From assembly GCA_964016885.1 (NCBI GenBank), contig OZ024755.1, positions 27,280,001 to 27,344,000 on the forward strand: a DNA stretch of 64,000 bases, written 5' to 3'. The translations under genes were made by a program, and so were the position numbers. The stretch is from Eledone cirrhosa (lineage: Eukaryota). Numbering within the stretch: the first letter of the stretch is position 1; every line of letters starts with the position of its first letter. Shown one piece after another: positions 31,784 to 59,707 of the stretch. A model generated the notes under the pieces. That model had not been told where the DNA came from, searched no databases, and worked only from the letters and a program-made list of their open reading frames with translations.

Positions 31784-32818
31784 TCAATTGCAAACGTTTT
31801 CTAACATTGTCTTCCATACCAAGTAATGTAACTTGGCCGTTACACTTTGGCTTGCAATTTTCTTGTTGGTCGCCAACTCACACAGTGAAGCTATCTTGTC
31901 TGGATGATACCATTTCGATGGAAATGATTGATGTTTGGCGTGAATCACTTCAGCTAGAATTCCTGTGATGTAAACGTCTTCCATTGACACATAAGGAAGA
32001 TATTCTGCCACGTCTAACAACAAACAGGAAGTGTTGAAGAGAAACAGATAGATGTTACCTACAGTGTAGTTTGGGTAATACGAATATGGATATTCATTCC
32101 AGCTAACTCGATATTTTGTGAACCAGCGAAACGGCGCAGCATCTTTGTAGATGTAACCAATAATCGTTCTATCCCAAACGTTTTTAGACAAGATAATGTC
32201 AAACACCATCGGTATATTGACAAAAGTGTCATCATCAACTTTCATGACGAATTTGGCCTGGGGGCAATAGTGACGAGACCATTTTAATCCCATGAGCACT
32301 TTACGAGTTAGATTTCGGTAAGTTTCGGTAAAGTTCGCCTGTACGACATCGTTGCACTGAGCACTTTCGTAAAGTAGCTCTCGATTGTGTGCGTCGTTGG
32401 GGTGATACCCGAAGAGGAAAACAACTTTCGTGAGGAGATTAGGAGGCAGGTTTGACGGTTGGTCTCCATATTGGCTTCGTGGCCACGGTTTTCCGATTGA
32501 TACGCCGCCCCACGTGGAACGGATTGCGTCTCGCTGGGATCGTCGCGTGTGCAGGGACGCAACGAGGATGAGCAAGAAGGGAGGACTGTGTTGACAGATT
32601 TTCTCACCTGGAATTGTGTAGGTGAAGTCAAGCGGGTTGATACGTTGCCTGCTCTCACGGTAATGGCGGTATGTATCTTCGATTGACTCCAGGAATCCAT
32701 TGGTAGGATAATTGCGATTGTTGCTCTTAAAATAATGAAAGATTATGACGATCGATATGAGTGAACAACAAAGCAACACAACTTTGAGACATTTTGCCTT
32801 CAAAACGCCACCAAGCAT
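31784..32818 (-). CDS. GT31 family beta-1,3-galactosyltransferase-like type II membrane protein, copy 1 (344 aa from ATG 32818)
   Basis: Signal anchor VVLLCCSLISIVIIF; RDAIRSTWG, ETYRNLTRK, FVMKVDDDTFVN, YPNY, EDVYITG. Polypyrimidine tract and AG acceptor just above 32865, so an upstream exon may exist. Confidence 0.92.
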   Translation of the reverse strand: MLGGVLKAKCLKVVLLCCSLISIVIIFHYFKSNNRNYPTNGFLESIEDTYRHYRESRQRINPLDFTYTIPGEKICQHSPPFLLILVASLHTRRSQRDAIRSTWGGVSIGKPWPRSQYGDQPSNLPPNLLTKVVFLFGYHPNDAHNRELLYESAQCNDVVQANFTETYRNLTRKVLMGLKWSRHYCPQAKFVMKVDDDTFVNIPMVFDIILSKNVWDRTIIGYIYKDAAPFRWFTKYRVSWNEYPYSYYPNYTVGNIYLFLFNTSCLLLDVAEYLPYVSMEDVYITGILAEVIHAKHQSFPSKWYHPDKIASLCELATNKKIASQSVTAKLHYLVWKTMLENVCN

Positions 32819-33360
32819 TGGGAGAGAAGTAGAAACTGGAAGCCATGTTCTAGAAAGTAGTTTGCCTAAAGGGAAAAAGAAAAGAAAGTAAAAAGAAAAT
32901 ATCAAAAACGGTTCTATACTTTTATTTCTGTATTTAGATATTAAAATCTGAATATTATAGAAATCGGTAAGATTATATAAAACAGCCAATAAAGCTAACT
33001 ACATCGAAATAATGGCATATGTACTGGGATTTGTTAAACGCATTCAAGGCAATCTTATTGTCTTTTAGTCATTACTATATATTTTACAATACATTTATAC
33101 GTATATATTTTTCTTTTGATCAATCATGAAAGGACGAACGTTAAAGTCGACCTCTGTGAGGTTTAACCTTAGAATATAAAAGATCACAACTAAATACCAC
33201 AAGGCAAAAGCTGACCTCTCAAGGGCAATGACACAACCATGACGTCTGGCGTCACTCAGTAATACAGAAGACCCGACGTCCACAGGAACAAGCCAAAGCT
33301 GAAGCAAATAGACAATATGCCCCCCCCCCCCCATACATTTATATACATATATATATATAT

Positions 33361-33699
33361 GGAGGCACATGGCTTAGTGGTTAGAGCATTGGCCTTGCAA
33401 TCAAAAGGTTGTGAGTTCAATTCTCAGACCGGGTGATGTGTTGTTTCCTTGAGCAAGACACTTTATTTCACATTGCTCCAGTTTACTCAGCTGTAGAAAT
33501 GAGATGATAGGGACTGGGGTCCCTATCATTCCACTGCTAAGTGGTCGTGGAGGTGCCACGGAAAAAAAGTACCCAGCACTCACTGTAAATGAGGTTGGTG
33601 TTAGGAAGGGCATCCAGCTGTAGAAACCAAGCCAGAATCAGTTCCCGTCCCACCCTTGCAAGCAGGGAAAAGCGGACGTAAAATGATGATGATGATGAT
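33361..33699 (+). mobile_element. tRNA-derived SINE with RTE-type tail
   Basis: Near-identical to 1349-1693; absent from the paralogous site at about 60240. Confidence 0.88.
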
Positions 33700-33814
33700 A
33701 TACATACATTTATATACATACATATATATACATACATACACATACATATATATACATACATACATATATATATATACATACATATAGATACATATATATA
33801 CAAACATATATACA

Positions 33815-34065
33815 TCATCATCATCATCCTCGTTTAACGTCCACTTTCCACGCTAGCATGGGTTAGACGGGAGTTGTCCCACTTGAGGCAAGGTTGGTCG
33901 AATGACCGTGTCTTGCTCATATAGGACTGCCTGGCAGGTTTTCTACGGCTGGATGCCCTTCCTAACACCAACCACATTTACAGTGTGGAACTGGGAACTT
34001 TTTACCGTGTTACCTACATGGCCACATTACAGCGTGGACTGTGTGTGTTTTTCTTGTGACACCTA
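33815..34065 (-). mobile_element. RTE 3' UTR fragment
   Basis: Reverse complement of about 30000-30250; paralog at 60355-60605. Confidence 0.85.
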
Positions 34066-56990: not shown

Positions 56991-57999
56991 TATATATGTA
57001 TATAGAGAGAGAGAGTGAGAGAGAGAGAGAGAGAAAGAGAGATATTAGGGATTGTAACGTCAAGTTACTGTTGGTTCATCAAAGTGAGCATTCTATGTGT
57101 AGTGTTTAGAATATACTTAGGGGATGCACTAAACAGAATGTAACAATAATAATAATTGTTTCTACATTTGGCACAAGGCCAGCAATTATTCCAGTGCATT
57201 ACTGTATATAATAATTGTTTCTACTTTTGGCACAAGGCCAGCAATTATCCCAGTGTATTACTGGTACTTTATTTTATCGACCCCCATAAGGATGAAAGGC
57301 AAAGTTAACCTCGGCGGGATTTGAACTCAGTCCGTAAAGGGACGTAACTGTGCTGCAAAGCATGGCGCCCGACCCTCTACCGATACTGCCAATTCACCGT
57401 AACAATAATAATAATTGTTTCTACTTTAGGCAGAAGGCCAGCAAATACCCAGTGCATTACAAAGTTAACCTCGTAAGGATGAAAGGCAAAGTTAACCTCG
57501 GCGGGATTTGAACTCAGAATGGCAAGGGCCCATACATACATAATTGTTTCTAGTTTAGGCACAAGGCTAGCAATTATCCAGTGCATTACTGGTACTTTAT
57601 TTTATCGACCCCGTAAGGATGAAAGGCAAAGTCAACCTCGGCGGGATTTGAACTCAGATCGTAAAGGGACAATAATAATAATAAGTATGGACGAGGTATC
57701 AAATTTTCATGAAGTTTATTCAGGTGTGACGCGTGTTTCATGATTGGTCAGCTCAAGGTTTGATCTTGGGATCAAGACTACTGTTAACTTAATGACAGTA
57801 TTAAACTAACAGAAGTCTGATGAGTATATATATATATATATATATATATATATATATATATATATTTGAAGGACTAGCGTCCGAAACGTTAAGACCCTCT
57901 TCCTGCTATATCAAGCGTTAACCTAATATATACCGTCCATATACCGATTGTGTTGTTATTTCTGTTTACCTTTTACATGCATATATATATATTTATATA

Positions 58000-58330
58000 T
58001 ATATTATTATAGATAACCAGGAATCAGTGATTCATCAAAACACAATTTATTAACATATTACATATGTTTCTACGACGATCAGCTCAAGGCAGGATCTATT
58101 ATAGATTGAACCTGACTCTGCATTCGCAAGGTCCTCAGATATGTTTATCATTTTCAAGGCATTTCTTCCAACTTGAAAACGATAAACATATCTGAGGACC
58201 TTGCGAATGCAGAGTCAGGTTCAATCTATAATAGATCCTGCCTTGAGCTGATCGTCGTAGAAACACATGTAATATGTTAATAAATTGTGTTTTGATGCAT
58301 CACTTATTCCTGGTTATCTATAATAATATA
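58000..58330. repeat. Long palindrome with HHR pair (copy B; plus-strand HHR 58185-58278)
   Basis: Paralog of 31154-31484. Confidence 0.95.
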
Positions 58331-58672
58331 CTCTGCTCCGCGTGAGCATCAAGTGTTCAAACGGTATACTGCCTATGGATGCATTTATTGCAACCTTACA
58401 ACAACTATATATATATATATGCACACACACAGATAAATATATACATATACTTACAGGCATGTATCCTTCTTTCGAATATATATTTTTTATTTTATTTTCC
58501 TTTTAGTTTTTCTGTTAAAATAGTTGCACATCCCTGTTCATGCCTATACATCGATTTATATATAAAGATACACACATAGACCTACGCATGAATACATATT
58601 TGGTTCAATAAAATAAGGGTCTATTAATGCACTGGGATTTATGCTGTCCTTGTGCCAAAATTAGAAATAATA

Positions 58673-59707
58673 TCAATTGCAAACGTTTTCTAACATTGTC
58701 TTCCATACCAAGTAATGTAACTTGGCCGTTACACTTTGGCTTGCAATTTTCTTGTTGGTCGCCAACTCACACAGTGAAGCTATCTTTTCTGGATGATACC
58801 ATTTCGATGGAAATGATTGATGTTTGGCGTGAATCACTTCAGCTAGAATTCCTGTGATGTAAACGTCTTCCATTGACACATAAGGAAGATATTCTGCCAC
58901 GTCTAACAACAAACAGGAAGTGTTGAAGAGAAACAGATAGATGTTACCTACAGTGTAGTTTGGGTAATACGAATATGGATATTCATTCCAGCTAACTCGA
59001 TATTTTGTGGACCAGCGAAACGGCATAGTTTCTTTGAAGACGTAACCCATAATCATTCTATCCCAAACGTTTTTAGACAAGATAATGTCAAACACCATCG
59101 GTATATTGACAAAAGTGTCATCATCAACTTTCATGACGAATTTGGCCTGGGGGCAATAGTGACGAGACCATTTTAATCCCATGAGCACTTTACGAGTTAG
59201 ATTTCGGTAACTTTCGGTAAAGTTCGCCTGTACGACATCGTTGCACTGAGCACTTTCGTAAAGTAGCTCTCGATTGTGTGCGTCGTTGGGGTGATACCCG
59301 AAGAGGAAAACAACTTTCGTGAGGAGATTAGGAGGCAGGTTTGACGGTTGGTCTCCATATTGGCTTCGTGGCCACGGTTTTCCGATTGATACGCCGCCCC
59401 ACGTGGAACGGATTGCGTCTCGCTGGGATCGTCGCGTGTGCAGGGACACGATGAGGATGAGCAAGAAGGGAGGTCTGTGTCGACAGATTTTCTCACCTGG
59501 AATTGTGTAGGTGAAGTCAAGCGGGTTGATACGTTGCCTGCTCTCACGGTAATGGCGGTATGTATCTTCGATTGACTCCAGGAATCCATTGGTAGGATAA
59601 TTGCGATTGTTGCTCTTAAAATAATGAAAGATTATGACGATCGATATGAGTGAACAACAAAGCAACACAACTTTGAGACATTTTGCCTTCAAAACGCCAC
59701 CAAGCAT
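58673..59707 (-). CDS. GT31 family beta-1,3-galactosyltransferase-like protein, copy 2
   Basis: Same motifs as copy 1; intact frame; 14 amino-acid differences; splice acceptor just above 59754. Confidence 0.92.
   Translation of the reverse strand: MLGGVLKAKCLKVVLLCCSLISIVIIFHYFKSNNRNYPTNGFLESIEDTYRHYRESRQRINPLDFTYTIPGEKICRHRPPFLLILIVSLHTRRSQRDAIRSTWGGVSIGKPWPRSQYGDQPSNLPPNLLTKVVFLFGYHPNDAHNRELLYESAQCNDVVQANFTESYRNLTRKVLMGLKWSRHYCPQAKFVMKVDDDTFVNIPMVFDIILSKNVWDRMIMGYVFKETMPFRWSTKYRVSWNEYPYSYYPNYTVGNIYLFLFNTSCLLLDVAEYLPYVSMEDVYITGILAEVIHAKHQSFPSKWYHPEKIASLCELATNKKIASQSVTAKLHYLVWKTMLENVCN

What the first reader, a model, noticed from the sequence alone, without database searches (positions are those of the whole stretch)
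31784..59707. Glycosyltransferase copies differ almost only by replacement changes, clustered in the likely acceptor-binding loop
Seen (manual count): about 16 nucleotide differences in 1035 bp give 14 amino-acid changes, with only one silent change. Nine substitutions, all non-synonymous, fall in about 46 bp (32121-32166): RTIIGYIYKDAAPFRWFTK vs RMIMGYVFKETMPFRWSTK. Flanking dead TEs look less diverged. Established: the G...P-x-R...K-Y segment after the DxD motif lines the acceptor site in GT31 structures such as human B3GNT2. Inference: positive selection on acceptor specificity, patchy gene conversion, or divergent alleles if the duplication is an assembly artefact.
Basis: partly seen in the sequence, partly recalled or inferred. 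Interest (0 to 1): 0.7.

Follow-up and report, generated by a model that had tools for sequence, protein, structure and literature searches.

The report
Octopod glycosyltransferase triplet with remodelled loop
An octopod carries three near-identical copies of a sugar-transferring enzyme gene that are mosaics of each other and differ mostly in the loop predicted to hold the sugar being extended, likely because natural selection has repeatedly retuned what the enzyme acts on.

Summary
The counts are exact: 16 nucleotide and 14 amino-acid differences between copies A and B, one silent step, nine replacements in 46 bp. A and B lie in a real head-to-tail duplication (flanks 0.49% diverged, non-homologous junction). 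A third intact copy, C, 55 kb away, matches B at 8 of the 9 clustered sites, while A and B group together elsewhere (runs test p=2e-4). The cluster is therefore a gene-conversion tract that exposes older A-versus-C divergence; most of it probably did not arise after the duplication. The tract is still unusual: 8 replacements, no silent change. Positions 224 and 227 align with acceptor-contact residues of human B3GALT5 and B3GNT2. The same loop differs from Octopus vulgaris at 13-15 of 33 residues, against 1 in Argonauta and 9 in Sepia. With a dead copy as outgroup, loop omega is 6.6 (3.9, p=0.016, without multi-hit codons). Against selection: the rest of the gene evolves near neutrally, the A-versus-C excess disappears if adjacent changes count as one event, and activity is untested. 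Verdict: likely adaptive retuning of a GT31 acceptor site plus conversion, a known pattern (ABO-like).

The parts
31784..32818 (-). Copy A: single coding exon, 344 aa GT31 beta-1,3-glycosyltransferase (B3GALT-related), type II membrane layout, DDD 195-197, MED 279-281
58673..59707 (-). Copy B: 344 aa; a mosaic, A-like overall but C-like at codons 76-87 and 220-233
32121..32166 (-). Cluster of nine replacement differences in A (codons 218-233): end of a strand and start of the HV2 acceptor loop
   Evidence: mapping
59010..59055 (-). Same cluster in B; equals copy C (G000:C15:27393859-27394890) at 8 of 9 sites
32054..32152 (-). HV2 loop of A, codons 223-255 (equivalent to B3GNT2 275-307); 13 of 33 residues differ from O. 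vulgaris
58943..59041 (-). HV2 loop of B; 15 of 33 residues differ from O. vulgaris
32559..32592 (-). Second tract (codons 76-87) where B equals C and A differs; residue 87 aligns with ribose-contacting T64 of B3GALT5
32844..32867 (-). Predicted splice acceptor (32866-32867) and an out-of-frame upstream ATG (32844-32846, 39-codon uORF) present in A and B, ACG in C
59733..59756 (-). Same predicted splice acceptor and upstream ATG in B
22259..45533 (.). Duplication unit carrying A, with private retroelement insertions
45544..64000 (.). Duplication unit carrying B (runs on to about 1.76 kb past the window's end)
45512..45544 (.). Head-to-tail junction: a repeat-family copy broken at about 45533, a 10-nt insert resembling both sides, then the unit start
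27427..27779 (-). Dead fragment of the same gene (codons 65-183, with stops); does not reach the loop
54238..54519 (-). Duplicate of the dead fragment in unit B (codons 65-159)

Best explanation
A and B are real tandem duplicates of an octopod GT31 glycosyltransferase gene whose clustered differences match a third copy, C, likely through gene conversion, and lie in the predicted acceptor-binding loop, which has likely been under repeated positive selection in this lineage. Mechanism: the enzyme is predicted to be a Golgi, metal-dependent, inverting beta-1,3-transferase, probably using UDP-galactose. Its catalytic and metal-binding residues are kept, while residues lining the acceptor site were replaced in three rounds: before a now-dead copy split off, on the stem after that split, and between the A and C lineages. 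A roughly 20-23 kb duplication then made A and B, and short tracts from C (codons 76-87 and 220-233) most likely overwrote B. A (Y224, A227) and B/C (F224, T227) would then differ mainly in preference for the sugar next to the terminal acceptor sugar. Shown: counts, duplication, mosaic pattern, fold, rate excess. Inferred: direction of conversion, selection, changed specificity, donor identity, expression.
For: Mosaic: sites ordered along the gene fall into 7 runs (14 A-odd, 18 C-odd; p=2e-4). With the dead copy as outgroup, 7 sites (codons 100-155) group A with B, while codons 86, 223 and 233 group B with C. Site mapping: ungapped alignment from the DxD to codon 232 puts 224/227 on B3GALT5 K185/E188, the only two residues contacting the second sugar (PMC11969544), and on B3GNT2 I276/A279 (PMC7948508). 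Model pLDDT 92.7; best match 8zwp, TM 0.83-0.84. Lineage acceleration: HV2 differs from O. vulgaris at 13, 15 and 15 of 33 residues, against 1 (Argonauta), 1 (O. bimaculoides) and 9 (Sepia); enrichment at octopod-invariant sites p=0.008, 4e-4, 1e-4, with none in the Sepia or Argonauta controls (p=0.69, 0.49). 5 of 10 acceptor-contact positions changed (224, 227, 236, 253, 299). Codon model with the dead copy: omega(HV2)=6.6, p=5e-5; 3.9, p=0.016 with six multi-hit codons masked. Stem branch: 6 of 33 HV2 codons against 2 to 6 of 155 core codons (p=4e-4 to 0.008). Silent changes are not raised in HV2 (1.7 in 30 codons against 10-12 in 142), so it is not a general mutation hotspot. Three open frames would be unlikely under no constraint: P(no stop) about 0.2 times P(no indel) 0.05-0.18.
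Against: Outside HV2 omega is about 1.4-1.6 and not different from 1, so constraint is weak gene-wide. A-C over the whole gene: omega 2.0, p=0.10; B-C 1.5, p=0.46. If the loop gets its own divergence time, omega above 1 has p=0.02-0.06, and it does not differ significantly from the rest (p=0.06-0.28). Counting neighbouring changes as one event removes the A-C excess in the structure-defined HV2 (p=0.16-0.44); at amino-acid level it is p=0.09. Multi-nucleotide mutations bias such tests (bioRxiv 10.1101/165969, abstract), and codons 228, 246, 247 and 253 are multi-hit. Acceptor against donor contacts is 5 of 10 against 1 of 11, only p=0.055. Several loop changes are conservative (I/V, D/E, Y/F). 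C carries L20P, L175P and V194A; A and B carry an out-of-frame upstream ATG. Expression and activity were not tested. The codon models are my own code on three or four sequences and ignore recombination.
Confidence: 0.5

Rival explanations
1. Relaxed constraint plus gene conversion plus a few multi-nucleotide mutations: the copies drift nearly neutrally and the loop, a tolerant surface region, collected changes by chance.
For: omega outside the loop about 1.4, not different from 1; event-level A-C test not significant; P(0 silent of 8) = 0.09-0.20; proline substitutions in C and an upstream ATG in A and B.
Against: Relaxation alone cannot push a region above the neutral rate, yet HV2 stays above it after masking multi-hit codons (p=0.016). 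The excess recurs on the stem branch. The loop is nearly invariant in other octopods. No template for an inversion or template switch of more than 7 nt explains the A-B loop differences.
Confidence: 0.27
2. One reading: A and B diverged under positive selection after the duplication, and B later converted C.
For: A-B omega 6.2, p=0.024; 16 coding differences against 5 expected from flanks; derived states occur on both sides of the loop (A at 220, 226, 228; B/C at 223, 224, 233).
Against: It still needs conversion, and needs about 11 extra fixations within 0.5% neutral divergence. C-to-B conversion explains the same data with only about 4 private changes (166, 218, 307 and one 5' site).
Confidence: 0.1
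3. The A loop came from an older allele or a lost fourth copy (ABO-like balanced polymorphism), so the cluster is simply an older tract.
For: A keeps I223 and F233 as in the dead copy; a separate divergence time for the loop fits about as well.
Against: No such donor among the 25 and 17 matches of two own-genome searches (both lower bounds). The dead fragments in the window stop before the loop, and the distant dead copy matches neither loop. An old tract should carry silent changes; there are none.
Confidence: 0.1
4. A and B are two alleles wrongly assembled in tandem, or the differences are sequencing errors.
For: Flank divergence of 0.5% with private insertions is in the range of allelic difference (general knowledge); no contig of runs X1 or X2 shows the A-type loop.
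Against: No gap in the window. The junction joins non-homologous ends through a 10-nt insert, which merging two haplotypes would not produce. In X1 and X2 the listed long contigs follow the majority letter expected from three copies, and the C-type side contig has about half the depth (5.3, 6.0) of the A/B-type 3' contig (11.7); this is weak, since contig depth is no copy number.
Confidence: 0.03

Closest known systems
Human B3GALT5 (GT31; PDB 8zwp) and B3GNT2 (6wmm/6wmo)
   Same: Fold, DxD, xED, K235 (K197) and the long HV2 loop that forms the acceptor site.
   Different: About 30% identity. B3GALT5 orthologues are reported for tetrapods (PMC8022947), so the database name 'B3GALT5-like' for cephalopod proteins is not orthology. 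W198 is Y here and S215 is V; donor and acceptor are unknown.
Cephalopod orthologues (XP_029635265/CAI9721142, XP_014778607, GAB1600788, CAE1327762)
   Same: One orthologous group, 75-81% identical in octopods; the three copies form one clade, support 100/99.
   Different: HV2 is almost invariant among the three named octopod proteins (0-1 of 33 differences), but differs at 13-15 of 33 here. No conserved-loop copy was found in this genome.
ABO (GT6) multi-copy loci
   Same: Linked copies, partial dead copies and proposed gene conversion moving specificity-determining codons (PMC5377540, passages).
   Different: ABO changes donor specificity at codons 266/268 and is proven biochemically; here the changes map to the acceptor side, in another family, with no assay.
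Vertebrate UGT1/UGT2 clusters
   Same: Tandem glycosyltransferase copies with selection at hypervariable acceptor-binding regions (PMC1885805, passages).
   Different: That paper finds little gene conversion and a variable-first-exon layout; here whole coding exons are duplicated and conversion is evident.

Membership tests
CAZy GT31, B3GALT-related | Pfam Galactosyl_T (PF01762) domain above the curated cutoff | tested here: met
   116.9 and 118.7 bits against a cutoff of 23
CAZy GT31, B3GALT-related | GT-A fold closest to GT31 structures | tested here: met
   Model pLDDT 92.7; top Foldseek hit 8zwp, E 1e-27, TM 0.83-0.84
CAZy GT31, B3GALT-related | DxD (motif II) and xED/EDV (motif V) | tested here: met
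   DDD 195-197 and EDVYIT from 280 in all three copies; motifs from PMC8022947
CAZy GT31, B3GALT-related | Motifs I, III and IV as written in PMC8022947 | tested here: inconclusive
   The strict patterns for I and IV did not match and III matched only elsewhere. The older RxxxRxT/SW form is present at 96-103, G221 is kept, and GxxY is at 254-257 without the final S; octopod orthologues deviate the same way.
CAZy GT31, B3GALT-related | Beta-1,3 transfer from a UDP-sugar | not testable with these tools
   Needs an enzyme assay
B3GALT5 subfamily | Orthology to tetrapod B3GALT5 | not tested
   No family-wide tree was built; PMC8022947 reports B3GALT5 orthologues in tetrapods, so membership is not claimed
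ABO-like adaptive multi-copy glycosyltransferase locus | Linked copies exchanging tracts by conversion or recombination | tested here: met
   Runs test p=2e-4 and incompatible polarised sites
ABO-like adaptive multi-copy glycosyltransferase locus | omega above 1 at substrate-contact sites | tested here: inconclusive
   Significant, weak or absent at event level for A-C
ABO-like adaptive multi-copy glycosyltransferase locus | Copies or alleles make different glycans, and variants segregate in populations | not testable with these tools
   Needs assays and population reads

The most novel reading that the evidence does not exclude
A gene that is nearly frozen in other octopods has, in this lineage alone, entered a sustained arms race: its acceptor site was rebuilt in three rounds and the variants are now shuffled between linked copies as conversion cassettes, giving a blood-group-like glycan polymorphism in an octopod.
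Probability: 0.2. Interest if true: 0.7.

Novelty: new member of a known kind. Interest (0 to 1): 0.45.

Why it matters
How GT-A enzymes gain new acceptor specificity through their hypervariable loops is mostly inferred from distant comparisons (PMC7948508). Here three copies 93-96% identical, a dead intermediate and near-invariant orthologues give a short natural series of loop changes on one scaffold that can be assayed directly. It would also be a rare sign of fast glycan evolution in a cephalopod. If the copies prove silent or equivalent, it is an ordinary decaying duplication.

Tried and rejected
No RNA holder was listed. Raw reads of other individuals were not seen, so allele frequency and read-depth copy number stay open. 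No member of this lineage turned up in the protein collection (44 hits at E<=1e-20, nearest 81%), and no shorter relative scored (0 of 33 candidates). The representative-protein search was not obtained. An apparent flank cluster at 22601-22677 was a minisatellite register shift and was dropped. I first read the whole 32 nt at the junction as templated insertion; about 22 nt belong to a repeat family, leaving 10 nt. The dead fragments were rejected as loop donors because they end at codons 183 and 159; the distant dead copy matches neither loop. A reverse-complement template search found nothing longer than 9 nt and nothing for the A-B loop. In one search I mis-numbered two donor positions (88 and 95); the right ones are 87 and 92, which changes 0 of 11 (p=0.012) to 1 of 11 (p=0.055). 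Codon lists were made by hand; ambiguous codons were left out and partly added back. The tools gave no coordinates, so no distance to a ligand was measured. No earlier scan finding fitted. Four paper searches listed no study of this gene or of selection on cephalopod GT31; that library lacks most subscription journals. No supplements were read.
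Full report
Observation. Copy A (31784-32818, minus) and copy B (58673-59707, minus) each encode 344 residues. They differ at 16 nucleotides in 14 codons, all changing the residue; the single silent step is inside codon 86. Nine differences fall in 32121-32166. None of 100,000 random placements put more than 7 of 16 changes in 46 bp. Flanks differ at 35 of about 7160 bases once a minisatellite misregister is removed, predicting 5 coding differences rather than 16 (P=8e-5), while the 7 outside the cluster fit (P=0.21). 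The lack of silent changes alone is borderline (P=0.02-0.09).

Identity. Both proteins hit PF01762. The nearest named proteins are octopod 'B3GALT5-like' sequences at 75-81% and decapodiform ones at 57-58%, so the host is an octopod (inference). A model built on 50 sequences has pLDDT 92.7 and matches human B3GALT5 best. The coding region is one exon behind a predicted splice acceptor; the upstream exon was not located.

The duplication is real. A and B sit in collinear head-to-tail units, 22259-45533 and 45544 to about 65763 in window numbering. The window holds no N. At the junction a repeat-family copy breaks off where three other family members and the end of unit B continue, followed by 10 nt resembling both sides and then the unit start. 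Among 42 listed matches (40 of 996 candidates scored) only the window itself covers both sides. Merging two alleles would need homology here. Contigs of two runs of one sample fit three copies: their long contigs carry the majority letter at A-odd and most C-odd sites, and a C-type side contig has about half the depth of an A/B-type one. That is weak support, and the sample may be the genome's source.

A third copy changes the reading. The own-genome search finds a third intact copy, C (G000:C15:27393859-27394890, 93%), a dead copy 4.6 Mb away covering codons 65-264, and two dead fragments in the window. C equals B at 8 of the 9 clustered sites and at codons 76-87 and 166, but differs from both A and B at 18 other sites. 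The site classes form 7 runs (p=2e-4). Polarised with the dead copy, A and B share derived letters at codons 100-155, while B and C share derived letters at 86, 223 and 233. No single tree fits, so tracts were exchanged. The simplest history is two short tracts from C into B, leaving about four private changes, near the flank expectation; the direction is inferred.

Where the changes sit. The alignment to B3GALT5 is ungapped from the DxD to residue 232. Read against the residue numbers in PMC11969544 (part 2 of 6 and passages), 224 and 227 equal K185 and E188, the only residues that contact the second sugar; 236 equals the stacking W198 and 253 equals S215. Against PMC7948508 (passages), 224 and 227 equal I276 and A279, and 299 aligns, less securely, with F356; HV2 (275-307) supplies five of seven acceptor contacts there and corresponds to 223-255. 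In the model, 218-224 lie on a strand and 225-250 in the loop, so 218 and 220 are outside HV2. Residue 87 aligns with the ribose contact T64 and 166 lies between the D126 and Y128 equivalents.

Selection. All three copies differ from O. vulgaris at 13-15 of 33 HV2 residues; Argonauta differs at 1 and Sepia at 9, although Sepia differs far more elsewhere. Five of 10 acceptor-contact positions changed against 1 of 11 donor and catalytic ones (p=0.055). The dead copy retains Q237, T241, M246, R247 and S253, which dates six HV2 changes to the stem, against 2 to 6 of 155 core codons (p=4e-4 to 0.008). My codon model gives omega(HV2)=6.6 (p=5e-5), or 3.9 (p=0.016) with multi-hit codons masked, and silent changes are not raised there. 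Against this: omega elsewhere is about 1.4; A-C and B-C whole-gene values do not differ from 1; allowing the loop its own age leaves p=0.02-0.06; and counting adjacent changes once removes the A-C excess in HV2 (p=0.16-0.44). Multi-nucleotide mutations are a known source of false signals (10.1101/165969, abstract).

Function. Catalytic residues and three open frames are kept, but C has L20P, L175P and V194A, and A and B have an out-of-frame ATG 28 nt upstream. Whether any copy is expressed or active is untested. The most likely effect is altered acceptor preference at the second-sugar subsite; a host-microbe or recognition pressure is a guess.

Comparison and verdict. The pattern resembles multi-copy ABO loci (PMC5377540, passages) and UGT clusters (PMC1885805, passages). 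It is a GT31 member but not shown to be a B3GALT5 orthologue (PMC8022947, passages). Four searches listed no paper on this gene. It is a new case of a known kind: observation confirmed, conversion shown as a mosaic pattern, selection likely at about even odds, interest 0.45.

Noticed in passing
window 32844-32846 and 59733-59735: A and B share a derived out-of-frame ATG (context GAACATGG) 28 nt upstream of the start, opening a 39-codon overlapping uORF; C has ACG. It could damp translation unless an upstream exon supplies an in-frame start, as in the 367-aa O. bimaculoides isoform.
   Followed up: partly
window 32063-32071 and 32027-32035 (codons 250-252, 262-264): Two N-glycosylation sequons (NYT, NTS) absent from the orthologues; N250 sits between two predicted acceptor contacts.
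   Followed up: no
window 32078-32083 (codons 246-247): Five of six bases differ from the dead copy; the change resembles a 6-bp inversion plus one substitution, by eye only. The template search did not confirm it.
   Followed up: partly
run X5 laid on window 31500-33300: A related organism shows two contig variants at several places and two contigs that skip 32077-32153, hinting at more than one copy or allele with a loop too unlike A to align at 85%.
   Followed up: no
window 5392-11408: Tandem array of a 310-bp unit, 19.4 copies, 99% identical.
   Followed up: no
window 27427-27868 and G000:C15:22660213-22660791: The dead fragments share 96% identity and a 5' flank with the dead copy 4.6 Mb away, so a broken piece was itself duplicated next to the live gene.
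   Followed up: partly
window 24054-25535, 34469-35596, 41805-44771, 48282-51051: Reverse-transcriptase retroelement remnants private to one unit or the other.
   Followed up: partly
window 31154-31484 and 58000-58330: A 330-bp self-complementary element (93-94% inverted match) downstream of both genes.
   Followed up: no
G000:C4:351.99-352.38 Mb and C1:354.03-354.05 Mb: Further clusters of distant GT31 genes (four and two matches, 27-29% identity) that could be tested for the same loop pattern.
   Followed up: no
window codon 324 of A (31847-31849): All octopod proteins aligned have Q where decapodiform proteins have H in the late ASH/ASQ motif, which may be the metal-binding C-terminal histidine (alignment to human H285 not checked).
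   Followed up: no
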